Below are positions 30,045 through 63,508 of a stretch of DNA of 64,000 bases, piece by piece. The stretch's first letter is position 1. Every line of letters begins with the position of its first letter. The position numbers were made by a program, and so were the translations under genes. Source of the stretch: a phage; sequence record PZ445427.1; one strand, written 5' to 3'. The notes beneath the pieces are model-generated. The model saw only the letters and a list, made by a program, of their open reading frames with translations, was not told the origin of the DNA and did no database searches.

Positions 30045-30050
30045 AACAAT

Positions 30051-30126: not shown

Positions 30127-30132
30127 ATTTAT

Positions 30133-30207
30133 GCGTGATTAGTTCAGTGGCTAGAATAACTGGCTTCCAACCAGTAGACACGAGTTCGACTCTCGTATCC
30201 CGCACCA
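30133..30207 (+). tRNA. tRNA-Gly(TCC)
   Basis: Acceptor gcgtgat/atcccgc (1 mismatch), anticodon stem actgg/ccagt loop cttccaa, T-arm acgag-ttcgact-ctcgt, CCA. Confidence 0.7.
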
Positions 30208-30223
30208 AATATAAGGAAACGTT

Positions 30224-30466
30224 ATGGACGTTTTTGAGTTTCGTAATAAAAGCCCCAATAGGCGCGTTTTGATTATTGGTGAAACATATCGAGCTTATGA
30301 GCAAGAAGATGGTTCGGTTTTACTAAACGATGAAAAGCAAGGTTATAGCTTTTATCCAGAAGAAACGTATGAAGAATTTCGTACCAAGTTTCTCTTACCA
30401 GACTGGCTAGCAGTAGCCGAGCAACGAGAATCCGAAGATGGCAGAAAACCTAAAATTAAAGGTTGA
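30224..30466 (+). CDS. hypothetical protein (80 aa)
   Basis: AAGGAAA RBS. Confidence 0.55.
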   Translation: MDVFEFRNKSPNRRVLIIGETYRAYEQEDGSVLLNDEKQGYSFYPEETYEEFRTKFLLPDWLAVAEQRESEDGRKPKIKG

Positions 30467-30612
30467 CAAACAAAAGAAATACGTTGAGGTTGAATTAGGC
30501 GAAGAACGCTTAAAGCTATCCTTCGAGTTTCTTCAGCAGTTGGCGATGACAGTAATGTCTGATAAGTCTCCTGTATTTGAGAAAGAAATCCCGTTGAAAT
30601 GACGGGTTTATT

Positions 30613-30687
30613 GCTCCTAAAGCATTGCTGGCGATGCAGTTGCCTTGTAAGCATCTGAACCGGGTTCGATTCCTGGTGGGAGCACCA
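30613..30687 (+). tRNA. tRNA-Thr(TGT)
   Basis: Acceptor gctccta/tgggagc, D stem gcat/atgc, anticodon loop cttgtaa, T-arm ccggg-ttcgatt-cctgg, CCA. Confidence 0.7.
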
Positions 30688-30702
30688 AATTTAAAAATTC
30701 AT

Positions 30703-30731
30703 TTGCCTTCTCTCTTATTTCTTGTTATAAT
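30703..30731 (+). promoter_or_regulatory. T5-type early promoter
   Basis: ttgcct 30703..30708, 17 bp, tataat 30726..30731. Confidence 0.55.
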
Positions 30732-30761
30732 ATTTATATAAATTAATGAGAGGGAAACCAA

Positions 30762-31055
30762 ATGAAACGTTATCTTTCTGTCGTATTCCAAACGGGTGGT
30801 CAACGCTACACTTACGAATTTCCTGAGTCTTGGAAAATCAAAGAGGGTGATCAAGTTGTTGTGTTAACACCTCGTGAAGGCTTCAAAGTAGTAACGGTTA
30901 AACAAGTATTTCCAAAAGATCACGAACCATCTAAGTCTCTTAACTATAAGATGATTCATGGTCTGGTACGAAAAGTACCTAGAACAGAAGTCGAAGTAGA
31001 TAAAACTGGAGAAGCTAAATACCAGTATACCTCTTACTTAGACGAAATGATGTAA
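30762..31055 (+). CDS. hypothetical protein (97 aa)
   Basis: GAGAGGGAAA RBS. Confidence 0.55.
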   Translation: MKRYLSVVFQTGGQRYTYEFPESWKIKEGDQVVVLTPREGFKVVTVKQVFPKDHEPSKSLNYKMIHGLVRKVPRTEVEVDKTGEAKYQYTSYLDEMM

Positions 31056-31056
31056 T

Positions 31057-31132
31057 GCTCCGATAGTTCAAACGGTTAGAACAGGCGACCGATAATCGTC
31101 AAATCTTGGTTCGATCCCAAGTCGGAGTACCA
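31057..31132 (+). tRNA. tRNA-Ile(GAT)
   Basis: Acceptor gctccga/tcggagt, anticodon stem ggcga/tcgtc loop ccgataa, T-arm cttgg-ttcgatc-ccaag, CCA. Confidence 0.6.
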
Positions 31133-31138
31133 AATTAT

Positions 31139-31211
31139 AGTTAGTTGGCAGAGTGGTTATGCACCTCCTTCATACGGAGTGACTACAGTGGTTCAAATCC
31201 ACTACTAACTA
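31139..31211 (+). tRNA. tRNA-Met/Ile(CAT), CCA not encoded
   Basis: Acceptor agttagt/actaact perfect, anticodon loop ttcatac, T-arm agtgg-ttcaaat-ccact. Confidence 0.6.
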
Positions 31212-31583
31212 CTAAACAGAGGATCAGGTCATTGTACCAGATCCTGCTGAGAAGAGAGTCCACATTCTATAAATGGCCGGGCGTGACAGCAGGAAGTAGA
31301 CTGCAACTCCATGCTATCCAGGAGTATAAATGTAGAAGCTAGGACTTTAGATAGCCATTGTCTTAGCGTGAGCAATCACGTAGTTGCAACAGACCTGGAA
31401 GATCGCAACGTTAAAATCAAAGTTCCAGTGCTTATTTATCTAATCGAGACCATCAATCTCACCGGAATGCTAGCACCCCAACAGTAGCTAGTGATTAGAT
31501 AATAAGCAAGCCTGCCTTCCAGTTTTTATCTTGCTTCTGGGTTAACAAAAAGCTGAGCCAAATTCTAACATCAGGGAGATCTA

Positions 31584-46719: not shown

Positions 46720-46747
46720 GGCCAGGACTTAATTGTTCTGGCCTTTC
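46720..46747 (+). terminator. hairpin, probable terminator
   Basis: ggccag ... ctggcc hairpin then TTTCG. Confidence 0.4.
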
Positions 46748-46756
46748 GTGTATACT

Positions 46757-47275
46757 ATGAGAGATAAAATAAACGAATTACTTTATGAGGAAGCACTACA
46801 ATTCCCCATAAATAGATTCACTAAATCAGATGGATCTATTAATAGAACTAAGCTCAAACAACTTCATCCAGACTTCCAGCAAGATGCACTTAATCTTATC
46901 TTTATTAGAAGAGCTGTAGAAGCACATGGTAAGTTCTTTGGATATGAAAGAGTTAAGTATAGAACAATGCAACAGCAGGTTGAGGTCTATTGTCCAGATC
47001 ATGATGGCTACTTCTTGCAAACTGCACGGTCTCACTTAGAAGGATACGGTTGCCGATTATGTGCGCATAAAGTTGTGACACGCTTAACAGAATATGGAGT
47101 GTACACCGTACCAGCACCTTTCCACAAATTTGTAGTTGACGGTGAGCACATAATTTGGTATAATAAAGATCAAAAGTTAAAACAGGAGTTAAAGAAAGAT
47201 GGAGTACGTAGTCTGGTCAAACCCCTTAGCTCTACTCTCCCACAAACTGTTCAAGACGACGTGGGGAAGGCATGA
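46757..47275 (+). CDS. hypothetical protein (172 aa)
   Basis: ATG 46757; 3' end overlaps next ORF by 77 nt in another frame. Confidence 0.45.
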   Translation: MRDKINELLYEEALQFPINRFTKSDGSINRTKLKQLHPDFQQDALNLIFIRRAVEAHGKFFGYERVKYRTMQQQVEVYCPDHDGYFLQTARSHLEGYGCRLCAHKVVTRLTEYGVYTVPAPFHKFVVDGEHIIWYNKDQKLKQELKKDGVRSLVKPLSSTLPQTVQDDVGKA

Positions 47276-47483
47276 AGTCTTTATAGATACAAATCCTTAC
47301 CCAAATAATCATCCATTAGTTCCTACATTATTTAAGGTAAAAATTGATGGTAAAGAATATTTACTAGATTCTTTTGGGCATGAGTTTGTAATAGAAGCCA
47401 TAGAAGATAATAGTATCTCTATGCGTGAAGTAATTAATAGAGCAGCCAACTTTGATAAGAGTTGGATGCTAATCTGGGGTTAA
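47199..47483 (+). CDS. hypothetical protein (94 aa), overlaps upstream ORF
   Basis: AAAGAAAG RBS-like before ATG 47199. Confidence 0.4.
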   Translation: MEYVVWSNPLALLSHKLFKTTWGRHEVFIDTNPYPNNHPLVPTLFKVKIDGKEYLLDSFGHEFVIEAIEDNSISMREVINRAANFDKSWMLIWG

Positions 47484-47670: not shown

Positions 47671-48281
47671 TGTTTACACAACAAACCATTAAAGTAGTTG
47701 CAGATCATGAACTCGACACATGGGATTACAGCTTTAAAGATCTGACTGCTACAGTACAGTTTAAATCTATGCAACTGTCGTTTTTGCACACTGATCTTCA
47801 AGGTTGCAAGGAATTTCAGGCTAAACTCATGAATGCTCGTGCTATCTTTGGCACAGCTCGCATCCCGGCAGATAATCTGATTAATGCACTAATCGATGCG
47901 GGGTATAAACTCATGAAGACTGAGGTGAACCGCCCTAGTACTCCAGTGACTATTCGGGATCCATGGCAGTCAGGGCCAATCGCAATGCTGAATAATTCTG
48001 ATAAAAGATTAATGTCGGATATGCACAATGTTCCTTGTGGTGGCGTGGTAAGCAATACACAATCATATAAGTTTGGGGAAGCATCTAGCGTAGACGAGTG
48101 GGATAAAGCTGGCGTTGCAATGATGGGCTTTGCAAAAGATCGCGGAGCACAAGAAGACTCCGGAGTTTCTAGGAACTCATATACTATTCGTTTGAGCAAT
48201 CCTAGCAAAGAAGGTGAGCTTGAAGAAATGTTAACGAAAGTATTCGAAGCTATTGATGCAGATAAAGCTAGAGGTCGTTAA
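47670..48281 (+). CDS. hypothetical protein (203 aa)
   Basis: TAATG coupling. Confidence 0.55.
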   Translation: MFTQQTIKVVADHELDTWDYSFKDLTATVQFKSMQLSFLHTDLQGCKEFQAKLMNARAIFGTARIPADNLINALIDAGYKLMKTEVNRPSTPVTIRDPWQSGPIAMLNNSDKRLMSDMHNVPCGGVVSNTQSYKFGEASSVDEWDKAGVAMMGFAKDRGAQEDSGVSRNSYTIRLSNPSKEGELEEMLTKVFEAIDADKARGR

Positions 48282-49171
48282 TGGGATTTTATAGTAATAG
48301 AAAGCCGAAAGGTGTAGTTGGTAAATTCGCGGTGGAAGAGAGACCTTTTCCACCGGTCGATGTAGAGAAACTACGTGAACTTCTCGAAATGTTAGAGGGC
48401 TGCCATGAACGTTGTTACTCTGAGCTTTCTTTAAACGAGAAACGTGTTGTTGAGATGTTCTGTATTCGGTCAGCTAGAACAGTTAGAGGTACTTCTCCAA
48501 AAGATGAAATAAAAGAATACAGAGTTCTAGTGATGCATGCTTGGGCACAACGTTTTGCAGTTCATTCACTTCAGGAATGGTTTAATCTTCCAGCATATAA
48601 AGACTTCCATGTTTATGAAGATGAAGTTATGAATTATAATGAGTTGTACGGTTTGTCATTTAAAAAGACAGGCTCACCAATGCATGATGCACTCAATTCA
48701 TTCCCTGATCATTATCTTCCAGTTCGTGAATACAGAGATCGTGAGGGAAATAAACCTTGCTTCACTATATGGAATAAGTCTAAGACAATATCTGATCTAG
48801 ACAATTATTGGTTCCGCACAAAAGAAGGATTCCTAGGAACAGAACCTTTACCTAAGGATCTCAAGCCTATCCTCCCACCTGTGAAACCTAAGCATGAAGT
48901 AACGATTGCTATTAATAGAATAATTCTAGGAGCAGATGATCTTACTAAACAAATCGCCGCAGTTATTGCAGTTCTGTTTGAAGGTACAAAATCTTCCCCA
49001 CGTTATGAAAAGCTAACTGATAACAAATTGCAGATACCTAACGAGTTGTACGAGAGTTCATGTAAGATCTATGATAACTTCAGTAAAGTAGATTACCCTG
49101 TGAGATCCATCAAAGAACTCATGGAGTATGCGGAGATGGGGATGAAAGGAAATCTCATGTTCGATGAATAA
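48281..49171 (+). CDS. hypothetical protein (296 aa)
   Basis: TAATG coupling; last gene before repeat region. Confidence 0.55.
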   Translation: MGFYSNRKPKGVVGKFAVEERPFPPVDVEKLRELLEMLEGCHERCYSELSLNEKRVVEMFCIRSARTVRGTSPKDEIKEYRVLVMHAWAQRFAVHSLQEWFNLPAYKDFHVYEDEVMNYNELYGLSFKKTGSPMHDALNSFPDHYLPVREYRDREGNKPCFTIWNKSKTISDLDNYWFRTKEGFLGTEPLPKDLKPILPPVKPKHEVTIAINRIILGADDLTKQIAAVIAVLFEGTKSSPRYEKLTDNKLQIPNELYESSCKIYDNFSKVDYPVRSIKELMEYAEMGMKGNLMFDE

Positions 49172-49178
49172 ACTCTAC

Positions 49179-49207
49179 TTGACGTTATGATTTCTGCATG
49201 TTATAAT
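49179..49207 (+). promoter_or_regulatory. strong sigma70 promoter TTGACG-17-TGtTATAAT pointing into ORF-free repeat region
   Basis: ttgacg 49179..49184, extended -10 tg at 49199..49200, tataat 49202..49207. Confidence 0.55.
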
Positions 49208-49213
49208 AACTCT

Positions 49214-49400
49214 ATGAAATAACATAGAATAAAGAGATCCACCCGGATACGGATGGTGGATGGGAAACTTCTATTTCCCCCGTAGCTTGTCGGAGGGCTA
49301 GGGAAATCTTCAGAAGTTTTGTACCATCTCACGCAATTCGTATCCCAGGGGTGGAGCATCTCTCACAATCCCTTGGGGATCTTATACTTATATAAAAACT
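49214..49400 (+). ncRNA. candidate structured non-coding RNA
   Basis: Promoter-proximal ORF-free GC-rich segment with multiple local hairpins (gggaaacttctatttccc; cccagggg ... cccttgggg). Confidence 0.3.
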
Positions 49401-49456
49401 AATACTGTTGAATAGATAAATTAACGTTCAAGATGATACACTTGTTGCCGCCGCTC

Positions 49457-49650
49457 TTCCTAGGATGGCACAACACTTTCTAGTAGACTCCTAAGTTTCT
49501 AGGAAAACTCACACCAACTCAGGCGGTTTTCATATTCCTAGAAACTCTAGCAATAGGCGGTTTAATACAGGGCGGTTATTTCTAGGAGACATTTTTCCAA
49601 AACACATTTCTGGAAATTGCTATCGGATTTGCACTCTGTGTTTCTAGAAA
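49457..49650. repeat. array of about 8 TTCTAG(G/A)A motifs with 3 interspersed (A/G)GGCGGTT motifs
   Basis: tcctagga 49459, ttctagta 49479, ttctagga 49498, tcctagaa 49536, ttctagga 49580, ttctggaa 49609, ttctagaa 49643; ggcggtt at 49522, 49556, 49571. Confidence 0.6.
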
Positions 49651-50222
49651 TTTATGGTCGGATTTGCACAATTGCCTAAGTTTTCATGAACACATACTCT
49701 CCTGAAAATAACAGCATTATTTCGGGCCGAAGGCCCATGATTGCCTGAGTTTTTAGAGCCACAGGAATTTTCACTTGTCAAGCTATTTTGCCCCATTTTG
49801 CTAATAAAATTTCGCATAATCTCGCCCCACGCCCAATTATCCCAAAACATCCCACATTATCCCCAAAAACGCAGCAAACTAGGCGTTGCACGCCCTTCCA
49901 GCTGCTACTTTCGTAGTTCCTCCCAAAATCTCATCGGATTCGCACTTCTCCCCAAACTCACACAATCACACACCCTCCAATCGAAGTCACAAAAATCTTG
50001 TCGGTTCTGCACACCTTAACACTTGTCGGATTTGCACATATTCTAGTAAATCCAGCTGGATTGCATCGCAGTTGCGGATTGCTGGAGTTTTTAGGAAAAT
50101 TCATTGTCGGATTCGCACACTGTAAAAATATTTCCCATCGGATTTGCACACTACCAAAAATTGTCGGATTCGCACATGCACGCTGGCACGTAATCCATGG
50201 TGGCAAATGTCGGATTTGCACA
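49622..50222. repeat. dispersed array of about 9 copies of GTCGGATT(T/C)GCACA
   Basis: Copies at about 49622, 49657, 49932, 50000, 50025, 50106, 50137, 50163, 50209 plus 2 degenerate copies near 50057..50085. Confidence 0.7.
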
Positions 50223-50257
50223 AAAGCGCAGGGCAAAATGAAAATGCCCTGCCTGCC

Positions 50258-50405
50258 GAAATGCGAATGATAATGAGATTGATTCGCATTTGAGAAGTTG
50301 AATGCGAATGATAATGATTCGCGTTTAGAAAGGGGAATGAGAATGGTTATCCTTTACAGAGTTGAATACGAATGAGTCGCATTTAGAAAGCGAAGTGAGA
50401 AACAC
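50258..50405. repeat. three tandem palindromic units AATGCGAAT-N-ATTCGCATT
   Basis: gaatgcgaatgataatga...gattcgcattt repeated at 50260, 50301, 50367. Confidence 0.6.
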
Positions 50406-50416
50406 TGTTATTTAAG

Positions 50417-50425
50417 TTATCCACA
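50417..50425 (+). promoter_or_regulatory. consensus DnaA box TTATCCACA
   Basis: Exact 9-mer; two 8/9 copies TTATCAACA at 50478 and 50490. Confidence 0.55.
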
Positions 50426-50506
50426 GGTTTATTAACAGCACGATTTGACTTGACAAAATCCTAGTGATTTTGAGGCGTTATCAACAGACTTATCAACAGG
50501 TTATTC

Positions 50507-50526
50507 TACTGTATATTTATACAGTA
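50507..50526. promoter_or_regulatory. LexA (SOS) box-like palindrome TACTGTATATTTATACAGTA
   Basis: 19/20 match to TACTGTATATATATACAGTA consensus (CTGT-N8-ACAG). Confidence 0.5.
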
Positions 50527-50555
50527 TTCCTGCGTAGTGAATAACTCTAATATAG

Positions 50556-50587
50556 CTCTAAAACGCTCTCAAACGCATTCTAACGCG
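50556..50587 (+). repeat. 31-bp direct repeat copy 1 (tctaaaacgctctcaaacgcattctaacgcg)
   Basis: Second copy at 54824..54854 with 3 mismatches. Confidence 0.6.
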
Positions 50588-50627
50588 TTTATTTTTGGAG
50601 GACGTATTTTAATAAGGGGAAATTTGA

Positions 50628-50668
50628 GGAAGGCCAGAAAAAGCGGGGCCGATAGTTGCGCCCCGTTA
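50628..50668 (-). terminator. rho-independent terminator (minus strand)
   Basis: cggggc ... gccccg hairpin; minus strand reads stem then CTTTTTCT. Confidence 0.5.
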
Positions 50669-50671
50669 TTA

Positions 50672-50866
50672 TTAGTCCGGTATTTGATGGGAGAACTCTA
50701 CGCTTTCACCGTAGGAATCTACTAGATTAGTGTAGTAACCATACTCATCATATATAAGTTTGTCATACTCTTGATTCTCACAAATTGCGCGGTTTTCTTT
50801 TGTATCTTCTACATAGAATGTATCCACGGTAACACTAGTTTTACGAATAACAATTTTATCACTCAT
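50672..50866 (-). CDS. hypothetical protein (64 aa)
   Basis: Track ORF, last gene of minus-strand operon inside IR-bracketed cassette. Confidence 0.5.
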   Translation of the reverse strand: MSDKIVIRKTSVTVDTFYVEDTKENRAICENQEYDKLIYDEYGYYTNLVDSYGESVEFSHQIPD

Positions 50867-50883
50867 AGTAACGCCCTCTTTTA

Positions 50884-51144
50884 TTAGTATTCTGTATTAG
50901 TTATAACTATAGCCGTATTTTCTAATTGTCCAGCACTTTCCGCTAAAAATGTAATATGTGCTGTATTGTTAATATAGATTGACTTATGCGCATTTCTTAA
51001 AGCATAAGCCCACCCACGGATCGCTGGCAAAATCTTGTCAAGCGATATATTTTGCGCTCTCAATTCCTTAGCGCGTACTGCCATTGCTTCATGTGCTTCA
51101 GTCAGTCCCTTAACTGTAAAAATACCGTTGCCGTGGTTGATCAT
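50884..51144 (-). CDS. hypothetical protein (86 aa)
   Basis: Track ORF, minus-strand operon. Confidence 0.5.
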   Translation of the reverse strand: MINHGNGIFTVKGLTEAHEAMAVRAKELRAQNISLDKILPAIRGWAYALRNAHKSIYINNTAHITFLAESAGQLENTAIVITNTEY

Positions 51145-51270
51145 AGTGCCATTGCTCCTAGAATGAGAATGATTATCAATATCATTGTAAAGCCATTACC
51201 AAATCGTAAACGCTGGGAATGTTTCCCAGCGGTATTATTAGATTTATGGCTTTGTGTTTTTCGCCACCAG

Positions 51271-51471
51271 CTATTCACGGTAAACGCTCCAACCGTCTAG
51301 CTTCCATTCCTCCCCCTTGCGAATATTGAAAAACCAATCATTAAAATTGTAACCATCTTCCGACATGATCACGCCGTTTTCTTTCATGTACAAAAACTCA
51401 TCGCTAGTAAAATATTGATTACTAACTTTGAAACCTTGTTTCATTTTTTCTAACGCTTCATCTTTAGTCAT
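51271..51471 (-). CDS. hypothetical protein (66 aa)
   Basis: Track ORF, 4-nt overlap with upstream gene. Confidence 0.5.
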   Translation of the reverse strand: MTKDEALEKMKQGFKVSNQYFTSDEFLYMKENGVIMSEDGYNFNDWFFNIRKGEEWKLDGWSVYRE

Positions 51472-51812
51472 TGTGCAATTTCCCGAAACGCTGTTTCAAT
51501 ACTTTCAGCGGTTGATTGAATATATGCGCCTTTCATAATCAGGCGCTCTGTACATACTTTGCGGAAAATGTCAATAAATTCATTTTCATTTTCTGCTACT
51601 AATGGCTCACCCATAACCTGTACATCACATGCGCCAAAAGTAAGAAACTGGAAGGCAAGCTCGCGAGCAACAACGGCATTAATCTTATAATGTGATTTGC
51701 CCTCATAGATATTAACCACGCCTTTATAAACTGGTGAAAGCTGATTTAAATAGCTTGCTAATAATGCCGGACGGCAATTAGTAACAAAACGATTACCCTC
51801 GTAAATAACCAT
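51468..51812 (-). CDS. hypothetical protein (114 aa)
   Basis: Track ORF, minus-strand operon. Confidence 0.55.
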   Translation of the reverse strand: MVIYEGNRFVTNCRPALLASYLNQLSPVYKGVVNIYEGKSHYKINAVVARELAFQFLTFGACDVQVMGEPLVAENENEFIDIFRKVCTERLIMKGAYIQSTAESIETAFREIAQ

Positions 51813-51921
51813 TTGTCAAGCTCCTAAAGCTGGGAAAATATCAGGTACATTTTTAAAACAAATGCAGCGAATGAGCAAACAACGCCAACGGTAGCAAACG
51901 CTAGAGCAATATATAAGGATC

Positions 51922-52134
51922 TCATAATACCCCACGAAAAGCAGCGTAAAAGGTGGCAAAGTGTTTAACCGTTTCGGCTACCAAATTTCCGCGCTTGTCA
52001 AATTTCTTTTCAGTAACACGGAAAGCGTTTTTGTTACGTGCTACATATTCGATTTTACAATCTGGACGCTCAAACGTGTTAACATCCACCAGCTTAAAAC
52101 CTTTAGAACGGGCAAGGGAAACATTCTTTAACAT
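51922..52134 (-). CDS. hypothetical protein (70 aa)
   Basis: Track ORF; preceded on minus strand by extended -10 TGTTATAAT (plus 52192..52200). Confidence 0.5.
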   Translation of the reverse strand: MLKNVSLARSKGFKLVDVNTFERPDCKIEYVARNKNAFRVTEKKFDKRGNLVAETVKHFATFYAAFRGVL

Positions 52135-56161: not shown

Positions 56162-56578
56162 ATGTCTAACGTTAAAACCGAAAAAACCGCAAAATTCTCT
56201 TGGAACGAAGAAAACACCGAAAAGGCTGTTTCTATGTATTCTGAAATGGTCGCTAAAAGCGGAATTGAATTTGCTAACAGTGACGGCCTGAAAGAAATTG
56301 CCGCCGCCGTTGGCGCTGCAAGCCCTGTTTCTGTACGTTCTAAACTGACAAGCGCAAAAGCGTACCAGAAAAGTGATAAACCGCGTAAAGTTGGCGGCGG
56401 GTCTAGTGTCCGTAAAGCTCACTATGTGCGCGTTATGGCTAAACATGCCATTGATGCTGGCGTTATCAAAGACGCTGATGATCTGGCAAGTCTGGAAAGT
56501 GCAAAACTGGAAACGCTGGAAGCCGTAGCGCAATTGTTAGGCGTAGCGGAGGAAGTAAAACAGGCCGCAGGTGAATAA
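56162..56578 (+). CDS. hypothetical protein (138 aa), possible A2-like pre-early DNA-binding protein
   Basis: GGAGTATTAAATTATG; position immediately upstream of the A1-like gene; identity is positional inference only. Confidence 0.35.
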   Translation: MSNVKTEKTAKFSWNEENTEKAVSMYSEMVAKSGIEFANSDGLKEIAAAVGAASPVSVRSKLTSAKAYQKSDKPRKVGGGSSVRKAHYVRVMAKHAIDAGVIKDADDLASLESAKLETLEAVAQLLGVAEEVKQAAGE

Positions 56579-56587
56579 ATTTTAATT

Positions 56588-56612
56588 AGCGGGGATTATT
56601 CCCCGCTATAAT
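56588..56612 (+). terminator. hairpin, probable terminator
   Basis: agcgggga-ttatt-ccccgct then ATAATTT. Confidence 0.45.
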
Positions 56613-56636
56613 TTCCCTTTGACCGGAGTTATTAAA

Positions 56637-56864
56637 ATGATCTTCTTCCCTAGTGAAGCGTTTATTTTAGGTTTATTTATAGTTGCCGCTATATTTATAT
56701 TTAATTACGGCAAATATATAATCTCTATTATCGGCATTAATTCAGCTTATGCCGCTGATATGTTTAAACGTCAAGCTAATAAACAAAAATATCTAGCGAT
56801 TATATTTTTAACGCTGGCTATTAGTTGCGGTTTTAGTTCTAGTCTTATGCCAATTCTAGAATAA
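56637..56864 (+). CDS. small membrane protein (75 aa)
   Basis: ATG 56637 after GGAGTTATTAAA; two TM segments; track start 56619 is upstream. Confidence 0.5.
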   Translation: MIFFPSEAFILGLFIVAAIFIFNYGKYIISIIGINSAYAADMFKRQANKQKYLAIIFLTLAISCGFSSSLMPILE

Positions 56865-56972
56865 TATTGCAAATTATAACGCCTTTTAAATTGTCCTCAC
56901 TTCAGGCAAGGCGTTATATTTGGCAATATTGCCAGTATTAATATTTATCCCTTTATAGGAGTTGATTTAGTT

Positions 56973-58637
56973 ATGAATATTTCCGCAGAAAAACAAGCTC
57001 AAATTCTGAAAATGGCCGCAGATTTTAACTTCTACGGTAAGCGTTTACGCGCTACTAAATTGGAAGTTTGCGACGATATTTCAAAAGCTGTTTATGATAC
57101 GCCGAAACATTCGACCGCAATTTGTGACTGGTTGGAAGCAAATAAGCCAGCGAAACCGAAAGCGGCAAAAGCTGAAAAGGCGATTAAAAATGATGATCGC
57201 CCCGAAGCGGCGGGGATTGTTTCTAGTACCGTCGAACAATGGGAAGTTAAATCCGGTCGCCGTTTTATTCTAACGTCGATTCAAAATAATACTTTCCCGC
57301 ATAAAAACTTTTTAGCAAGTCTGGAAAAATTCGCTGAATATTGCGGCGCTGAATTGCTGGTTAGTAAATTCATTTATAATAAAAATGGATTCCAGAATGG
57401 GGAAGGTAGCGACGGCATCAAATACGATCCCGCATTTAATAAATATATTTGCGAGAAAAACGTATTTTTAAATAATCGCCGCTTTGCTTTCATGGCTGAA
57501 ATTAACGTTTTACCAACGGCAGATTATCCGCTTTCAGGATTCGCAGAAACCGCCACGGCTTTAAATATTGAAGGGCTGGCAATCGGTCACGCTAAAATCA
57601 CCGCTGAAAGTGTACCAGCGTTAAAAGGTGAAGTAGTGCGCCGTATGTATTCAACCGGAACGGCGACACTAAAAAACTATATCCAGCAAAAGGCGGGACA
57701 AAAAGCCGAGGCTTTACATAATTTCGGCGCTTTGCTGGTAGAGTTTGACGACGACGGAGAATTTTATTGCCGCCAGCTTGAAACAATGGACGAAAGCGGA
57801 ATGTTCTACGATTTGAACGTGTGCGCTATCGCTACCGGATGTTATGAAACATCGGGCCATGTTCTAGGCTTGCAATATGGCGATATTCACGCCGAAAAAT
57901 TAGATGATGAATGCGCCGTTGCTTCATGGGCTAGTGAAAACAGCTTGCTTGATATTCTCAAGCCTAAATATCAATTTATTCATGATGTGCATGATTTTAC
58001 ATCGCGTAACCATCACAACCGCGCTAGTGGTGTATTCCTTGCTAAACAGTACGCCGCCGGACGTGATAAAGTTATTGATGATCTTATCGATACTGGACGC
58101 GTTTTAGAGTCTATGGAGCGTGATTTCTCTCAAACAATCATTGTGGAATCCAACCATGATTTAGCTCTTTCACGCTGGCTAGATGATCGTAACGCAAACA
58201 TTAAAGACGATCCCGCAAACGCGGAATTGTATCACCGTCTAAACGCTGCGATTTACGCCGCTATTGCTGAAAAGGATGATACCTTTAACGTTCTAGATTA
58301 CGCCTTGCGTAGTGTCGCAGGTTGCGAATTTAACGCTATTTTCCTGACGACAGACCAATCATTTAAAATCGCTGGCATTGAATGCGGCGTACACGGTCAC
58401 AATGGCATTAACGGCAGTCGGGGCAATCCTAAGCAGTTTAAAAAGTTGGGACGCCTTAACACTGGTCATACTCATACGGCTAGCATTTACGGCGGCGTTT
58501 ATACCGCTGGCGTGGCGGGGTCGCTTGATATGGGCTACAACGTGGGCGCGTCAAGCTGGACGCAAACGCATTTAATTACCTATGCAAACGGGCAACGTAC
58601 TTTGATTGATTTCAAAAACGGTAAATTCTTTGCATAA
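56973..58637 (+). CDS. A1: calcineurin-like metallophosphoesterase nuclease, T5 A1-like pre-early protein
   Basis: 554 aa; full set of metallophosphoesterase motifs (GDIH, IHDVHD, ESNHD, GVHGHNG, TGHTHT); TAGGAG RBS; assignment to T5 A1 rests on size, motif set and gene context. Confidence 0.5.
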   Translation: MNISAEKQAQILKMAADFNFYGKRLRATKLEVCDDISKAVYDTPKHSTAICDWLEANKPAKPKAAKAEKAIKNDDRPEAAGIVSSTVEQWEVKSGRRFILTSIQNNTFPHKNFLASLEKFAEYCGAELLVSKFIYNKNGFQNGEGSDGIKYDPAFNKYICEKNVFLNNRRFAFMAEINVLPTADYPLSGFAETATALNIEGLAIGHAKITAESVPALKGEVVRRMYSTGTATLKNYIQQKAGQKAEALHNFGALLVEFDDDGEFYCRQLETMDESGMFYDLNVCAIATGCYETSGHVLGLQYGDIHAEKLDDECAVASWASENSLLDILKPKYQFIHDVHDFTSRNHHNRASGVFLAKQYAAGRDKVIDDLIDTGRVLESMERDFSQTIIVESNHDLALSRWLDDRNANIKDDPANAELYHRLNAAIYAAIAEKDDTFNVLDYALRSVAGCEFNAIFLTTDQSFKIAGIECGVHGHNGINGSRGNPKQFKKLGRLNTGHTHTASIYGGVYTAGVAGSLDMGYNVGASSWTQTHLITYANGQRTLIDFKNGKFFA

Positions 58638-58689
58638 TTAAATTTAATCGGCGGTTGAAATATACCGCCATTAATAAAAGGTTTATTAA

Positions 58690-58968
58690 ATGGCTAGTAA
58701 AATTAATATATCTATCCCTGATAGCAATTGTTTAGAAGATATTGCATGGTCTGAAATGTCTTTTGATAGTTGCGTTTATTTAGTTACCCGTGGAATGTAC
58801 GCGGGAATGTATGCCGTATGGGATAGTAATATTGGCGAAAATATGATCTTTTTCGGAAAAGATTCTATTCAGGTAATGACAGGCGATTACCTTAATCAAG
58901 AAAGGAAAGACGGCGACGAAACATATTTTCGTAAAACTGATTTATCTTTAAATGTATTTTTTCAATAA
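58690..58968 (+). CDS. hypothetical protein (92 aa)
   Basis: Track ORF. Confidence 0.5.
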   Translation: MASKINISIPDSNCLEDIAWSEMSFDSCVYLVTRGMYAGMYAVWDSNIGENMIFFGKDSIQVMTGDYLNQERKDGDETYFRKTDLSLNVFFQ

Positions 58969-59000
58969 ATCCCGTAATTAAATAATCTGGAGTCATAAAC

Positions 59001-59393
59001 ATGAAACAACAAAATATTCCTTTTGACCGCGCTACTTCTTCCATCGTTCTAGTTTATTCTAACGGCGAACGTTATCACGTTGAAGCGGGGCAAGTTAATT
59101 TCGATTTGCTAAATTATAATGACGCTTTGCAGGTTACTACCTTTGCTTATGATACCGGCAAAGTGGCAAGCCATACGAAAGCAAAAGGCGTTTACGCTGA
59201 TACTTTGACAGTGCAAACAATCATTATTGATGCGCTTAAATCCGGTCTAGCGTTTGCAGTTGTTAAGCCGTGTCCGGTCTGCAATCCCGAAGCTAGCGCA
59301 ATGGTTTATACTTGCGCGGGGATTCGTTCTAGCGTACATGGTGAAGATCTTAGTTTTATTGGTGACGCGCTAGCGTATGGCCTCACTAACTAA
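59001..59393 (+). CDS. hypothetical protein (130 aa)
   Basis: CTGGAG RBS. Confidence 0.5.
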   Translation: MKQQNIPFDRATSSIVLVYSNGERYHVEAGQVNFDLLNYNDALQVTTFAYDTGKVASHTKAKGVYADTLTVQTIIIDALKSGLAFAVVKPCPVCNPEASAMVYTCAGIRSSVHGEDLSFIGDALAYGLTN

Positions 59394-59480
59394 TAGTTAA
59401 TTGAACATTGCCAGCTAATCTAATATAATTAGCTGGCAAGATTGAATTAACCTAAATCCCTTAAATGGAGAATGTAACAA

Positions 59481-60215
59481 ATGAATCAAGTCAACATGAA
59501 TATTACCCGCACTTTCCCGCATATTTCCCGCGTTATGATTTGGGATTTAGACGGAACGATTATAAATTCTTTCCATCGTGTAGCGCCTTGCTTTGATGAT
59601 AACGGGAATTTAGATTTAAATAAGTATTCTCGCGAAGCCTGCAAACATGATTTAATTATGCAAGATTCTTTATTGCCGTTGGTTGAATATATGCGCCAAT
59701 GTATGAATGATGCAAATACATTAAATATAATTTGTACCGCGCGCTTAATGTCTAAAAGCGATTATTTTTATTTACGCAAACAAGGCTTGCGAGGGCGCGG
59801 AAATAGTAATATTCGCGTATTTTCCCGCGATACATTACATAAATACTTTGATGCAAATAAGGTTAGCGAAATATATCACAGTAAAGACGCTGTATATAAA
59901 TCTTATTACTTTGAACTGTTTAAACAGCTATATCCTAACGCTGATTTTACAATGATTGATGATCATAAAGGTGTATTATCGGCGGCGGCAAGTGCTGGAT
60001 TTAAAACGCTGGACGCTCAAGCCGTTAATGATATCCTATCAATCGGCGTAACATTGATCGGTGAAACCTTTATTGATGAATCGCTTGATGATGATAACGA
60101 TTATCAATTCCTAGCCGAACGTTTAAAAATGTGTTGGGAAGGTATGACCGAGGAAGAACGCGCGGAATATAGTACCACTCCGCAACAATTCATTGATAAA
60201 TTAAAAGTTGCCTAA
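59481..60215 (+). CDS. dmp: HAD-superfamily 5'-deoxyribonucleotidase (T5 Dmp-like)
   Basis: 244 aa; HAD motif I IWDLDGTIINS; TGGAGA RBS; last gene of the pre-early-like block. Confidence 0.55.
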   Translation: MNQVNMNITRTFPHISRVMIWDLDGTIINSFHRVAPCFDDNGNLDLNKYSREACKHDLIMQDSLLPLVEYMRQCMNDANTLNIICTARLMSKSDYFYLRKQGLRGRGNSNIRVFSRDTLHKYFDANKVSEIYHSKDAVYKSYYFELFKQLYPNADFTMIDDHKGVLSAAASAGFKTLDAQAVNDILSIGVTLIGETFIDESLDDDNDYQFLAERLKMCWEGMTEEERAEYSTTPQQFIDKLKVA

Positions 60216-60227
60216 CAATTAAAAATA

Positions 60228-60264
60228 AAATAGTCACACTGTGTAATGATAACATGGTGTGACT
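60228..60264 (+). terminator. 10-bp perfect hairpin after dmp-like gene
   Basis: atagtcacac ... gtgtgactat; no clear U-tract. Confidence 0.35.
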
Positions 60265-60378
60265 ATTAGCTTGCTAAGTACCGGGGCGGTAATGAGACTC
60301 ATTCTCATCTAGGGAACCTCTGGGCACACCTTCATGTGTAATCTTATGAGATTTCGAGAATTGGTAATTAGCGCTAAC

Positions 60379-60624
60379 TTAGGAGGAACACCGGTCTACC
60401 GGCTTGTCTCCTGATTCTGACATACGAAATCTCCTCCGCGATGCCCGAGATCCATCCGACCACTCTCGCTCAAACTCCTCCCGTTTCTCCGCAAACTTCC
60501 GCTCCCTTTCCGAAAGCTCCCGCGATACTCCCGCAATATATTCACGATGCTTATTAATCGCCCCGAGTGTTCCGAAGATTCCCGCAAGCACCCTGATAAT
60601 AAAGATAGCTACAAAGCTAAACAT
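60379..60624 (-). CDS. small membrane-anchored charged protein (81 aa)
   Basis: Track ORF; N-terminal TM then ERERKFAEKREEFERE. Confidence 0.45.
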   Translation of the reverse strand: MFSFVAIFIIRVLAGIFGTLGAINKHREYIAGVSRELSERERKFAEKREEFEREWSDGSRASRRRFRMSESGDKPVDRCSS

Positions 60625-60811
60625 CTAATTCCCTCTCAAGTTGGTGAATACGTGCCCGATCATTACGTTGGGAGTCCAGTAACTTATCCATATTAATATT
60701 CAGTTGGGTGACTTTATCCTCTAGCCGCTGTATACGATTACGATGTGACGTCATATATCCAACAATCCAGACAAGCCATACTACAAGTGTAATAAGTCCT
60801 AGCCAATCCAT
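60617..60811 (-). CDS. small membrane protein with coiled-coil tail (64 aa)
   Basis: Track ORF; 8-nt overlap with downstream gene. Confidence 0.45.
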   Translation of the reverse strand: MDWLGLITLVVWLVWIVGYMTSHRNRIQRLEDKVTQLNINMDKLLDSQRNDRARIHQLERELDV

Positions 60812-60916
60812 TATTTGTCTCCCCGCAGCTTACGTTCTATACGAGCTAAGTGGTTATCTAGAATGCACTGTCCGATAATTACCACAACTAGTAAAGCAAT
60901 AATTACTACTTCCATT
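60812..60916 (-). CDS. small hydrophobic peptide (34 aa)
   Basis: ATG at 60916 on minus strand; MEVVIIALLVVVIIG...; below track cutoff. Confidence 0.25.
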
Positions 60917-60987
60917 ATAACCACCCCGCCATAGCTGCTAACCAAAAGAGTACAAAGATAAAGAATAACACAGTCCCGAATCCGAAA

Positions 60988-61302
60988 CTATTTATCCAAC
61001 TTTCGTACACTTCCCCGCGTCTGTTCTTTCTTCTGTTGTCGTCTGACATCTCTTTGCTTCTCCTGTAGTCCTGGTATTTGGAATATCCTAGCAATTGCAC
61101 GAACCATTATGACCGTCCCGATAAGATCCATTACTTCATCGAAGCCGGATTCTTCTAGTAAGAAGGATGTTCCCATCACATCTTCCATTGTATCTTCTAT
61201 GACGTCTTGAATGATTTCGTTAATTGCATCATGTATTGCTTTAGTCCTGGGATCTATTTCAAAGTTAACAGGTTCCTGAAAGGCCTTTTCTTCATCTTGC
61301 AT
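60988..61302 (-). CDS. hypothetical acidic protein (104 aa)
   Basis: Track ORF; overlaps alternative ORF 60915..61100 in another frame. Confidence 0.4.
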   Translation of the reverse strand: MQDEEKAFQEPVNFEIDPRTKAIHDAINEIIQDVIEDTMEDVMGTSFLLEESGFDEVMDLIGTVIMVRAIARIFQIPGLQEKQRDVRRQQKKEQTRGSVRKLDK

Positions 61303-61376
61303 TGTGTTTGCTACCTGTACCTCATCCCAGAAATAAAAATTTTTGTTTACTTCGAGATCTTTTTACTTTATACTAA

Positions 61377-61643
61377 TTACAAGTGACCAGATTGTTCTAG
61401 TTTAAATTTGCAATCGCCATATTTGAGGTCAAACTGTGACAAATCCCACCACCCAAACTTAGTGCGTAACTGAGTTTTAGGGAATCGGTAGCCCACAGTA
61501 CGTGCTTCTCGAATATCTAAAGCATAGTGTTCTTCACCAACATGACCATAAGACTTCACGTATGCCTTACAGAATGGCTCGGGAGCTGGTACACAACCAG
61601 TCAACACTACTGCTGCAACTACGATAGCTAATAACTTTTTCAT
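61377..61643 (-). CDS. lipoprotein (88 aa), possibly Llp-like receptor-blocking lipoprotein
   Basis: Signal peptide with lipobox VVLTGC; divergently transcribed from adjacent receptor-binding-protein-like gene, as T5 llp is from oad. Confidence 0.45.
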   Translation of the reverse strand: MKKLLAIVVAAVVLTGCVPAPEPFCKAYVKSYGHVGEEHYALDIREARTVGYRFPKTQLRTKFGWWDLSQFDLKYGDCKFKLEQSGHL

Positions 61644-61726
61644 AATCGTTCCTCTGTTTAATTTATAAATATATTATAGCAAAATAGAGGGATCTAAGCA
61701 AATACATTTTTAAAGAAGGAGATTGT

Positions 61727-63508
61727 ATGAGTTTTTTCGCAGGAAAATTTAGTGATGGTAAAACTGTATTATCGCTAAACGCTGCTAATGGTGGTGATAC
61801 TGGTGAACACTACTCTCCAAATACTAATAGTATCTTTCACTCAGATATGCCTTTCGTCCTGGTTGATGGGACTTATGAAGCGGCTCTAGGTAATGCAGGT
61901 AATGGATACTTTGTTACTCAGATGCCTTGGGATATTATAAATATTAAATCCAATGATCCGGGTAGAGTTATATTAACTGCTATTGAGATTAATGGTACCC
62001 ATAGAGGATTCCTCAATGGTACTCAATCTCAGGTTGGTAGCTATTTAACTCTTGCGGAGGATCCAGGTTTTAGAGCATTCGCTCAAGTAGGCTTAAGTTC
62101 TGCTTTTGCAATCGGCGATAGTCTAGCACACGGTACTTATATTTATAATAGTGGATTAGGACATGAAGAGTCTATAGCCAGACAAGGTACTGGCGGAACA
62201 ATTATACAATCATCAGATGTGGGTATAGTGAGACCTGGGGGTGTTCCGGTAGGGGAAGCGGTTGCCAGAGCATATGAAATGCTTGGATTTCCTAGAGGAA
62301 CTATTAATGTACCTATAAATGCCGGAGATTTAAACTATTGGGATCCTAACTGGCAGGCACCTATTGGTTCTGCCGGTAGAGGTCATGATCATTTCTACGT
62401 ATGTAACTCAAATATTCGCAGCTATATAGGTAAGAAAAAAGAAATACCGGCAAATGTAAATCATATCTATTCCTCCCCTACTTTTCCTTATCTATATACC
62501 TGTAGAGGTTCGGCTAGTAATATGGGTTCTCAGTCTGTTAACACTGTTTATATTCAGGACTGGTATAATATTACACCTACTAAGGTTATCTGGTATGTTT
62601 TAAACCTACGTTACTCTAATGGTAATATGGTGGTTTCTGGTAATCCATTTACTGGTTCTGATATCCTTATCTCTCCATCTAACTTTACTATTAAAGGGGT
62701 AAGTTTACCTAACTCTGGTTATAAATTTATTAATCAGAATGCCTTTGGTAATCTAGGTTATCGTTCAGATATGGAATATATAGGTAATAATGCTGCGTAT
62801 ACTGGGGTTTTTGGGGATACTACTGCGCGATGTGAATTCATTGGCTCTAGCAATGGTGGATTATGGTCTCCAGTTAACTATGGGGGTGCTGCCTCTCAGA
62901 TTAGTTTATATAAGTTTGGTGCAGGTAAACAATGGTATGTAGATACTAATAGTAATTCCATAGGAAATGAACATGGTCCAGTTTGGAGTCCCTCTACAGT
63001 TCCACTACGATTATTCCCTGGTAACGTTGCTAGTACTTATGTTGGGGATGATATAAATCCATCTTACCCAGCGGCAGGCAACTATTATCAGCCTTTAGCT
63101 ACTGTATGGTTGGGTCTGCCTAATGCTCATTCTACTATTATACTAACCACTGAAGTTATTATGGGTAATATTAATACTGCTGGAATGCCTGTGCGTACTT
63201 ACGGAGGTAGTGCTTGGCAGGTACAAGGTAGACGGCAACAAAGTTATACTGCTGGTGATGGTATATTTCATCAAATACTAACATTGCCTCCAGGATATCT
63301 AGTACCATATCATAGTACTACAGCATATAGTTATACACAGGAATGGGCGAGCCGACCAGATAGTATGATTTTTAGAAGGAATGGTTATATTTATACTATT
63401 AAAAACCTTGGTAATGGCAACGTTGAGTTGGGTGTTATTATCCATGCTGCAGAAGCAGCTGCTATCTTCTTACCAAGACTACGTGTAACAGTTCAACGCC
63501 TAACCTAA
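61727..63508 (+). CDS. tail receptor-binding protein-like (pb5/Oad-like), 593 aa
   Basis: GGAGA RBS; large Gly/Asn/Ser/Tyr-rich beta-type protein; position next to lipoprotein gene; identity by context and composition only. Confidence 0.45.

What the first reader, a model, noticed from the sequence alone, without database searches (positions are those of the whole stretch)
49179..49400. Strong promoter firing into non-coding DNA: candidate structured RNA
A near-consensus promoter (TTGACG, 17 bp, TG-n-TATAAT at 49179..49207) sits right after the stop of the last early gene and is followed by about 190 nt of GC-rich, hairpin-dense sequence with no ORF. It may encode a small RNA, or transcription itself may act on the downstream repeat arrays.
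Basis: seen in the sequence. Interest (0 to 1): 0.5.

Follow-up and report, generated by a model that had tools for sequence, protein, structure and literature searches.

The report
Unannotated small RNA gene of T5-like phages
The strong promoter is real and drives a roughly 180-base rod-shaped non-coding RNA that sits at the same place, just outside the terminal repeat, in essentially every T5-like phage examined, is annotated in none of the records I opened, and has no known function.

Summary
The window is a T5-like phage (Demerecviridae). TTGACG-17-TGtTATAAT at 49179-49207 is one of only two extended -10 promoters scoring at least 11/12 in the 64 kb (0.2 expected by chance).

It is followed by a 19-nt A/U-rich leader, one long imperfect hairpin (49233-49363, 53 pairs, -68 kcal/mol, z -5.5) and a small terminator-like hairpin (49368-49380).

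The same unit lies between the last leftward early gene and the inner edge of the terminal repeat in all 49 related loci collected. It comes in at least 8 alleles with dissimilar stem sequences; this window carries type A and T5 carries type B. The alleles together account for about 427 of about 440 T5-like phage records. Klebsiella, Proteus and Vibrio members of the family have the unit too.

Base pairing is kept through compensatory changes. G.U pairs outnumber A.C mismatches 44 to 1, so the + strand RNA is the selected form. There is no conserved ORF, no Rfam match, no host similarity, and I found no paper describing it.

Best reading: an independently transcribed structured small RNA gene and a new RNA family. 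Its mode of action is inferred only; it probably works through its shape, by protein binding or RNase III processing. Expression was not tested.

The parts
48281..49171 (+). Last leftward early gene before the terminal repeat (296 aa, function unknown; T5 ORF018 family). Context only, not part of the RNA unit.
   Evidence: ORF list. PHROG phrog_8583, E 4e-123. 43% identity to T5 ORF018 over the N-terminal 195 aa. No Pfam domain. Other alleles of the RNA gene follow a different upstream gene.
49179..49184 (+). -35 hexamer TTGACG
   Evidence: The equivalent site in relatives is TTGACA, TTGACG, TTGCAT or TTGATA.
49199..49207 (+). Extended -10 element TGtTATAAT
   Evidence: TGnTATAAT (T5: TGtTATCAT; Vibrio: TGaTACAAT) is present in every relative examined.
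49214..49232 (+). Predicted transcription start (A at 49214, 7 nt after the -10) and a 19-nt unpaired A/U-rich 5' leader, AUGAAAUAACAUAGAAUAA
   Evidence: The start site is inferred from spacing. A pyrimidine followed by A at the 7th position after the -10 is seen in all alleles and genera. The leader is unpaired in the MFE fold.
49233..49363 (+). Long imperfect (rod-like) hairpin, 53 pairs; all bulges are on the 3' arm; apex UAGCUU-GUCGGA-GGGCUA
   Evidence: Fold. The + strand fold is more stable than the - strand fold. Equivalent 95-136 nt rods are found in all other alleles.
49368..49392 (+). 3' hairpin AUCCC-UUG-GGGAU followed by CUUAUACUUAUA: a terminator-like end of the unit, weak in this allele
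   Evidence: Terminator scan and fold. Relatives keep a pyrimidine-arm/GGGGG-arm hairpin followed by a U-rich tail. It is a clear intrinsic terminator in allele G (GGAGAGACUCUCAUGAAAUUGGGGGUCUCUUUUUCUUU).
49381..49450 (.). Conserved non-coding block ending in TTCAAGATGATACAC, which starts right after the 3' hairpin and includes the U-rich tail. It anchors the RNA gene to the repeat side and exists in three or more variants that are shuffled relative to the RNA allele.
49746..49783 (.). Approximate inner boundary of the long terminal repeat. The RNA gene lies in unique DNA about 350-390 bp outside it.
   Evidence: Transferred from the annotated repeat ends of phages Sw2, SIY1lw and T5. Inferred by homology, not measured on this genome.

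Best explanation
This is a self-contained gene for a small structured non-coding RNA, about 170-180 nt here and 170-215 nt in relatives. It is transcribed by host sigma-70 RNA polymerase from a near-consensus extended -10 promoter and ends at a hairpin followed by a U-rich tract.

The product has a short A/U-rich 5' leader and a long rod-like imperfect hairpin. The stem sequence differs completely between alleles, but the pairing is maintained.

The gene is a family-wide feature of T5-like phages (Demerecviridae). It always lies in unique DNA just outside the inner edge of the left terminal repeat. That makes it the first transcription unit to enter the cell when second-step DNA transfer resumes.

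Shown here: promoter quality, fold stability, conservation of position and architecture, compensatory changes, strand asymmetry, absence of a conserved ORF.

Inferred only: that the RNA accumulates and acts in trans through its shape, either by binding or sequestering a host or phage protein that recognises long irregular duplex RNA, or as an RNase III substrate. I put about 0.3 on that mode of action. The confidence given below is for 'a genuine structured RNA gene'.
For: Promoter
- 11/12 plus TG. Only 2 such sites occur in 64 kb, against 0.2 expected.

Fold
- -68 kcal/mol, z -5.5. T5's different sequence at the same place gives -64.6, z -6.4.

Conservation
- All 49 loci (37 distinct sequences) anchored on the downstream block carry promoter, rod hairpin and 3' hairpin, in at least 8 alleles with dissimilar stems.
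- Allele counts in the phage database are 37 + 141 + 249 = about 427, out of about 438-444 T5-like records.
- The same unit is found in Klebsiella phage Sugarland (promoter 12/12 plus TG, same 5' end, apex like T5's), Proteus phage Stubb (12/12 plus TG, rod z -3.5) and Vibrio phage Rocket24 (10/12 plus TG, shared 5' and 3' motifs).
- In Sugarland and Rocket24 a terminator ends the upstream operon before this promoter, so the unit is independent there. T5 has a hairpin without a U-tail at that position.

Covariation
- Within allele B, 7 of 8 variable pairs stay paired: 3 by double changes and 4 by G.U changes. The tool alignment of 8 of these sequences finds 3 double and 3 G.U changes, with covariation score reached by 0 of 500 shuffles.
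- Across alleles C-H, 93% of cells are paired against 85.5% in shuffles. 9 pairs and 46 cells show changes on both sides; 0 of 500 shuffles reach the score or the cell count. Slid controls give 39-47% paired.

Strand
- The + strand fold is more stable in 35 of 37 sequences.
- 44 G.U pairs against 1 A.C mismatch across 9 allele representatives.

Non-coding
- No ORF is shared between alleles on either strand.
Against: - No transcript data were available, so promoter activity, RNA ends and abundance are all predictions.
- In this window's allele the 3' hairpin is short (5 pairs) and its U-tract is interrupted, so termination here may be inefficient.
- Within-allele covariation comes from few lineages, essentially one T5/Shivani split.
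- The cross-allele alignment was fitted to the model, which biases pair counts towards the structure.
- A covariance model built from alleles E-H finds alleles C and D but not A (this window), B (T5), Stubb or Rocket24. Assigning this window's allele to the family therefore rests on synteny, architecture and short 5'/3' motifs.
- The Vibrio example folds only marginally better than shuffles (z -1.7) and Sugarland's + strand fold is not better than its - strand fold.
- Nothing found here points to a specific partner or target.
Confidence: 0.75

Rival explanations
1. A cis-acting end module of the leftward early operon. The long hairpin and the small hairpin would serve as a transcript 3' end, an RNase III processing or stabilising site, or an insulator. 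It would keep convergent early and pre-early transcription apart at the repeat boundary. The promoter would be incidental or auxiliary.
For: - In this window the promoter follows the upstream stop codon by only 8 bp with no terminator between, so read-through mRNA would also carry the hairpin as its 3' end.
- The unit sits between convergent gene blocks.
- Long irregular hairpins are classical RNase III sites in phage early mRNAs (established knowledge for T7; not tested here).
Against: - A near-consensus extended -10 promoter is conserved in every allele and genus.
- In Sugarland and Rocket24 the upstream operon has its own terminator before this promoter, so the hairpin is not that operon's 3' end there.
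- The gene upstream differs between alleles while the unit stays the same.
Confidence: 0.12
2. A DNA-level element. The inverted repeat, as a cruciform or single-strand hairpin, together with local transcription, would act on the neighbouring cis region of palindromes, DnaA-box-like repeats and the repeat boundary. Possible roles are replication initiation, terminal-repeat duplication or concatemer cutting, or restart of second-step DNA transfer.
For: - The position next to the terminal-repeat boundary is invariant across very divergent phages (A1 protein only 33% identical), despite mosaic flanks.
- The adjacent region is dense in conserved repeats and palindromes.
- Davison notes the oriC-like character of the repeat region (bioRxiv 10.1101/866236).
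- In T7, a hairpin near the concatemer junction and transcription towards the junction are involved in end processing (my own knowledge, not tested here).
Against: - The repeat is imperfect, with many bulges all on one arm, which makes it a poor cruciform.
- 44 G.U pairs against 1 A.C mismatch, and lower + strand energies, show selection on one strand only.
- The 3' hairpin pairs through G.U and so exists only on the + strand.
- A terminator-type end lies before the repeats.
- Transcription runs towards, not away from, the repeats.
- A single-stranded DNA hairpin of the + strand is not excluded by these data.
Confidence: 0.08
3. A lambda pR'/6S-type leader. A strong constitutive promoter would make a short terminated RNA until a phage factor converts the polymerase to a terminator-resistant form. 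Transcription would then run through the terminal repeat, in the sense direction for A2, A1 and dmp. In concatemers it would continue into the receptor-binding-protein gene.
For: - The anatomy resembles lambda pR'-6S-tR': a strong promoter, an RNA of about 190 nt, and a terminator (my own knowledge of lambda).
- In this circularly joined window the + strand direction leads to A2 (56162-56578), A1 (56973-58637), dmp (59481-60215) and the receptor-binding protein (61727-63508).
- The Vibrio allele has GGCUCUUAUUA after the hairpin, which resembles a boxA element.
Against: - About 6.7 kb of non-coding repeats and antisense genes separate the unit from the first co-oriented gene.
- The boxA-like string is not conserved in other alleles.
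- No antiterminator protein is known for T5.
- The long variable rod has no counterpart in lambda 6S RNA.
Confidence: 0.04
4. A small protein-coding gene, either on the - strand (52 aa, 49201-49359) or a leaderless mini-ORF at the transcript start.
For: A mechanical 52-aa ORF lies on the - strand. Some database records annotate short hypothetical proteins over this region. AUG-AAA-UAA lies at the predicted +1.
Against: No ORF is shared in frame, strand or sequence between alleles. Most records annotate nothing here. No promoter was found on the - strand for the 52-aa ORF.
Confidence: 0.01

Closest known systems
phi29 packaging RNA (pRNA, Rfam RF00044)
   Same: A phage-encoded structured RNA of about 170 nt, made from a strong early host-polymerase promoter close to a genome end. 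Its secondary structure is conserved among relatives while its sequence is almost entirely divergent (my own knowledge of phi29).
   Different: - No Rfam match at this locus in any allele.
- The architecture is a single rod, not a three-way junction with two interlocking loops.
- No evidence for a role in packaging.
- Unrelated phage family and a different packaging system.
Rod-shaped decoy RNAs: bacterial 6S RNA (RF00013) and adenovirus VA RNA
   Same: Abundant, largely double-stranded rod-like RNAs of 160-190 nt that act by binding a protein through their shape rather than by base-pairing to a target. This is the mode of action I favour here.
   Different: No 6S match in Rfam. No large central bubble is predicted. 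Protein binding is entirely untested.
Lambda short promoter-proximal transcripts (6S RNA from pR', oop RNA) and HK022 put RNA
   Same: A strong constitutive phage promoter followed by a short structured RNA that ends at a terminator.
   Different: No co-oriented operon lies directly downstream. No antisense target was found. No conserved nut or boxA element.
RNase III processing hairpins of T7 early mRNA
   Same: Long irregular hairpins with internal loops or bulges, located between or after early genes.
   Different: The T7 sites lie inside polycistronic mRNAs and have no promoter or terminator of their own. This unit has both, in all relatives.
T5 'Repeat Region 3' / injection stop signal region (Wang et al. 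2005 annotation; Davison bioRxiv 10.1101/866236)
   Same: Immediate neighbour, and part of the same large non-coding stretch at the inner end of the left terminal repeat.
   Different: The described region covers T5 9194-10409. The RNA gene lies at about 10565-10799, outside it. It is not annotated in the T5 records AY587007, AY543070 or AY692264. That paper contains neither the word promoter nor hairpin.

Membership tests
Any Rfam 15 family (including 6S RNA, phi29 pRNA, SRP RNA, tmRNA, Y-RNA-like and known enterobacterial sRNAs) | Covariance-model match to the family | tested here: not met
   cmscan of window 48000-52000 at E up to 10 gave no hit in 49179-49400. cmscan of 9 loci carrying alleles B-H plus Sugarland and Stubb at E up to 5 gave no hit on the RNA gene.
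Independently transcribed bacterial/phage small RNA gene | Own sigma-70 promoter immediately upstream | tested here: met
   11/12 plus an extended -10 TG. Conserved in all relatives.
Independently transcribed bacterial/phage small RNA gene | Intrinsic terminator at the 3' end | tested here: inconclusive
   In this window there is only a 5-pair hairpin with an interrupted U-tract. It is a clear terminator in allele G and plausible in D-H and the Vibrio phage.
Independently transcribed bacterial/phage small RNA gene | Secondary structure under selection (covariation) and no conserved ORF | tested here: met
   covariation; G.U asymmetry; no shared ORF.
Independently transcribed bacterial/phage small RNA gene | Detectable discrete transcript | not testable with these tools
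   No expression data are accessible. Public T5 RNA-seq exists (PRJNA1280264, cited in PMC12783706).
Repeat-proximal rod RNA of T5-like phages (family defined here) | Position: unique DNA between the last leftward early gene and the inner boundary of the terminal repeat, transcribed towards the repeat | tested here: met
   for close relatives; for distant genera. In the window the gene is at 49179-49392 and the boundary at about 49746-49783.
Repeat-proximal rod RNA of T5-like phages (family defined here) | Sequence/structure homology to the other alleles detectable by a covariance model | tested here: not met
   Model R1 (alleles E-H) finds C and D (E 1e-7 to 4e-13) but not this window's allele A or T5's allele B. 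Only short motifs are shared: the 5' AACTCTATGA / AATCTCATAGA, the apex UAGC..GGAG, and the 3' GGGGATCTTATA.
phi29-type packaging RNA | Two loops with intermolecular complementarity; requirement for DNA packaging | not tested
   No systematic loop-loop complementarity search was made. The packaging role needs experiments.
Base-pairing antisense or trans-acting sRNA | Extended complementarity to a target in the same genome | tested here: not met
   blastn-short of the RNA against the 64-kb window found nothing beyond chance-level matches of 11 nt or less. Host targets were not tested; the T5 RNA has no similarity to E. coli genomes.

The most novel reading that the evidence does not exclude
The RNA is a dedicated component of the DNA-handling machinery peculiar to T5-type phages. 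It could be needed for second-step DNA transfer, for duplication or cutting of the long terminal repeat in concatemers, or for packaging (a functional analogue of phi29 pRNA). That would explain why its position next to the repeat boundary is invariant from Escherichia to Vibrio phages while everything around it is mosaic.
Probability: 0.1. Interest if true: 0.85.

Novelty: new member of a known kind. Interest (0 to 1): 0.6.

Why it matters
T5 is a classical model phage, and T5-like phages are widely used in biocontrol and phage-therapy collections.

A strongly promoted RNA gene that is conserved across the family, yet absent from Rfam, from the papers I could search and from the genome annotations I examined, is a real gap in the parts list.

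It is the first transcription unit to enter the cell after the injection pause, and it borders the least understood cis-acting region of the genome: the injection stop signal and the repeat boundary. That makes it a concrete, easily mutated handle on long-standing questions:
- what restarts second-step transfer;
- how the early programme is set up;
- how the terminal repeats are processed.

At the least it defines a new RNA family, which should stop annotators from calling spurious 'hypothetical proteins' over it.

Tried and rejected
1. Rfam search of the window and of 9 relatives found no family.
2. tRNA/tmRNA scan: 29 tRNAs, all elsewhere.
3. Search for an antisense target inside the 64-kb window found only chance-level matches.
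4. Similarity of the T5 RNA to 5,426 E. coli genomes: none. This argues against a mimic of a host RNA at the sequence level.
5. Small-ORF hypothesis: no shared ORF.
6. A repeated operator downstream of promoters: AACTCTATGA and TGnTATAATAAC are not enriched elsewhere in the window.
7. boxA/nut-like reading of the 3' motif GGGGAUCUUAUA. Only the Vibrio allele resembles boxA; the other alleles do not.
8. CsrA-sponge idea (GGA motifs; AGGAUGU in alleles C and D). GGA counts are inconsistent between alleles and the rod architecture is unlike CsrB. This was judged by eye only.
9. CRISPR-repeat mimic: no resemblance to the type I-E repeat, by eye only.
10. The first 5' 'hairpin' of alleles C-H (AATCT-CAT-AGATT) never varies, and half of it lies upstream of the predicted start site. 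It is not evidence for RNA structure.
11. A covariance model to unify all alleles links C-H but not A or B.
12. Eight full-text searches and five papers checked (three by term search only; two further look-ups found no held paper): no description of this RNA. Older T5 papers in subscription journals could not be searched.
13. The search for related loci with the upstream protein returned only one locus. Anchoring on the conserved DNA block worked instead.

Full report
**What the window is.**
The 1.4 kb around the finding matches 444 phage records, nearly all Salmonella or Escherichia T5-like phages. The best matches are SIY1lw, 100268_sal2 and Sw2 at 90-94%. The window carries 29 tRNA genes at 16-31 kb, and A2, A1, dmp and a receptor-binding tail protein at 56-63.5 kb.

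It is therefore a T5-like genome (Demerecviridae, Epseptimavirus-like), read in the opposite orientation to the T5 map and assembled with a single copy of the long terminal repeat. The repeat ends annotated in Sw2, SIY1lw and T5 place the inner boundary of the repeat at about window 49746-49783.

The finding thus lies in unique DNA. On one side is the last leftward early gene (48281-49171, T5 ORF018 family, function unknown). On the other is the repeat-rich non-coding region that contains the T5 'injection stop signal'.

**The observation.**
The promoter is as described: TTGACG, 17 bp, TGtTATAAT at 49179-49207. It is not a chance match. Only two sites in the 64 kb reach 11/12 with an extended -10 TG, against 0.2 expected from shuffles.

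The downstream sequence is not a collection of small hairpins. From the predicted start (A at 49214) there are three parts:
- a 19-nt unpaired A/U-rich leader;
- one long imperfect hairpin at 49233-49363, with 53 pairs and all bulges on the 3' arm;
- a small hairpin at 49368-49380 followed by CUUAUACUUAUA.

The fold is far more stable than shuffles (-68 against -46.7 kcal/mol, z -5.5) and more stable than the opposite strand (-62.4).

**Comparative evidence.**
Only 37 phage records share this hairpin sequence. But 207 share the block just downstream (49370-49450), T5 among them.

Reading T5 at the same place showed the same layout with a quite different sequence: TTGACA-17-TGtTATCAT, a short 5' hairpin, a rod of about 130 nt (whole RNA -64.6 kcal/mol, z -6.4), and a small 3' hairpin. 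That version occurs in 141 records.

I anchored on the conserved block and collected 49 loci (37 distinct sequences) from the phage records, IMG/VR and metagenomes. Every one has the promoter, a rod hairpin of 95-136 nt and a 3' hairpin with a G-rich 3' arm and a U-rich tail. There are at least eight alleles with dissimilar stems:
- A: this window;
- B: T5 and Shivani;
- C: Stitch and chee24;
- D: EPS7 and SPC35;
- E: FFH1 and DT571/2;
- F;
- G: BF23;
- H.

Alleles C-H occur in 249 records. Together the alleles account for about 427 of the roughly 438-444 T5-like records. Almost all of those listed have nothing annotated at this position.

The gene upstream of the promoter differs between alleles. 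The downstream block comes in variants that are shuffled relative to the RNA allele. The unit is therefore a self-contained module with a fixed address next to the repeat.

The same unit exists well outside the T5 subfamily, and in all three cases it lies between the last early gene and the repeat boundary or the first convergent repeat gene:
- Klebsiella phage Sugarland (A1 74% identical): a perfect promoter, the same 5' end, an apex GUAGCGCGGAG..GAAGCGAGUAC like T5's GUAGCGGAGG..GGAGCGAUAGGAC, and a 3' GGGGGAUCU.
- Proteus phage Stubb (A1 42%): a perfect promoter and a rod with z -3.5.
- Vibrio phage Rocket24 (A1 33%): a 10/12 plus TG promoter, related 5' and 3' motifs, and a less rod-like fold with z -1.7.

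In Sugarland and Rocket24 the upstream operon has its own terminator before this promoter. T5 has a hairpin without a U-tail there.

**Is the structure selected, and on which strand?**
Within allele B, 7 of the 8 variable pairs stay paired, three through double changes and four through G.U changes. The tool alignment of 8 of these sequences gives three double and three G.U changes, and no shuffle reaches the covariation score.

A covariance model built from alleles E-H finds alleles D and C over their full length (E 4e-13 and 1e-7). On the resulting 22-sequence alignment:
- 93% of cells pair, against 85.5% in shuffles;
- 9 pairs and 46 cells have changes on both sides;
- 0 of 500 shuffles reach the score or the cell count;
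- slid controls fall to 39-47% paired.

That alignment is fitted to the model, so it leans towards the structure.

The + strand fold is the more stable in 35 of 37 sequences. Across nine allele representatives there are 44 G.U pairs but a single A.C 1x1 mismatch. A double-stranded DNA palindrome would show no such asymmetry. The 3' hairpins pair largely through G.U and exist only on the + strand. No ORF is shared between alleles on either strand.

**What it is.**
The simplest reading is an independent gene for a structured small RNA. Under this reading it is made early, because it lies outside the DNA that enters in the first-step transfer and has a plain strong sigma-70 promoter.

Limits of this conclusion:
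- Expression is not shown.
- The 3' end of this window's allele is a weak terminator.
- The model does not link alleles A and B to C-H by sequence, so for this window membership rests on position, architecture and short motifs.

**How it may work.**
Nothing found here identifies a partner. There is no Rfam family, no similarity to E. coli genomes, no complementarity within the window beyond chance, and no repeated operator.

The anatomy is a strong promoter, a discrete end, a rod whose sequence is free but whose pairing is kept, and a partly conserved apex (RUAGC..GGAG in alleles A, B, F, G and Sugarland). This fits an RNA that acts through its shape. It could bind or sequester a protein, as 6S or VA RNA do, or be cut by RNase III. 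I hold this at about 0.3.

Rivals:
- A cis-acting end or insulator module of the early operon. The conserved promoter and the upstream terminators argue against it.
- A DNA-level role in replication, repeat processing or DNA transfer. The strand asymmetry and the bulged repeat argue against it, while the invariant position argues for it.
- A lambda pR'/6S-type leader. The 6.7 kb of non-coding and antisense DNA downstream argues against it.

**Comparison with what is known.**
The closest analogy in overall logic is phi29 pRNA: an early promoter near a genome end, about 170 nt, structure conserved and sequence not. But no defining feature of that family was met or testable.

The neighbouring T5 'Repeat Region 3' (9194-10409) has been analysed in detail (Davison, bioRxiv 10.1101/866236). 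The RNA gene, at about T5 10565-10799, lies outside it and is not annotated in the three T5 records.

I found no paper describing it among those searchable. Older T5 literature in subscription journals could not be checked.

**Verdict.**
This is a new, family-wide RNA gene of a known general kind, with unknown function. It is of moderate to good interest because of its universality, its likely high expression, and its position at the edge of the injection-stop and terminal-repeat region.

Noticed in passing
window 49623-50222: Nine same-strand copies of TCGGATTTGCACA, with up to 2 mismatches (1.5 expected in the whole window). They span the inner boundary of the terminal repeat and correspond to 'direct repeat D' in the T5 annotation (a known feature of the injection-stop region). 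By eye they resemble DnaA boxes.
   Followed up: partly
window 49496-49650: Five closely spaced TTTCTAGRAA-type palindromes lie between the RNA gene and the repeat boundary, together with GGCGGTT repeats at 49524-49575. They look like binding sites for a dimeric DNA-binding protein. They are conserved in T5.
   Followed up: partly
window 49381-49450: A non-coding block ending in TTCAAGATGATACAC is conserved in 207 or more phage records, in three or more variants. The variants are shuffled relative to the RNA allele: A occurs with two variants and B with three. The string GGGGATCTTATA at the RNA 3' end therefore behaves as a recombination joint.
   Followed up: partly
window 49214-49222: The predicted transcript starts exactly at an AUG followed by AAA UAA, a leaderless two-codon mini-ORF. 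T5 has AUG AGU UAA and Stubb has AUG plus 27 codons, but alleles C-H and Sugarland have AUA GAU UAA. This may simply reflect a conserved 5' end of the form AURRNUU.
   Followed up: partly
window 49724-49736: A G+C-rich hairpin, GGGCC-GAA-GGCCC, lies about 10-50 bp inside the unique side of the inferred terminal-repeat boundary. It is identical in T5 and Shivani. It may belong to the signal that defines the repeat end.
   Followed up: no
window 50250-50400: Repeats and palindromes of GAATGCGAATGATAATGA-type units inside the terminal repeat. They appear to correspond to the direct repeats C and palindromes E-I annotated next to the 7.9% nick in T5.
   Followed up: no
window 47136-47164: The only other promoter match in the window with at least 11/12 plus an extended -10 TG (TTGACG-17-TATAAT). 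It lies inside the 3' part of ORF 46733-47275, just upstream of ORF 47199-47483.
   Followed up: no
window 16287-31212: A cluster of 29 tRNA genes, all on the + strand. This is typical of T5-like phages.
   Followed up: no
window 56162-63508: A2 (56162-56578), A1 (56973-58637) and dmp (59481-60215) are followed directly by a receptor-binding tail protein gene (61727-63508). The window therefore comes from an assembly with one collapsed copy of the terminal repeat. It joins the genome's left end to the right end of the unique region, as in a concatemer.
   Followed up: partly
L006 (SpoonbillGilly) 580-801 and other records: Some deposited genomes annotate short 'hypothetical proteins' (29-40 aa, on either strand) over the RNA gene or the adjacent conserved block. 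These are probably false gene calls.
   Followed up: partly
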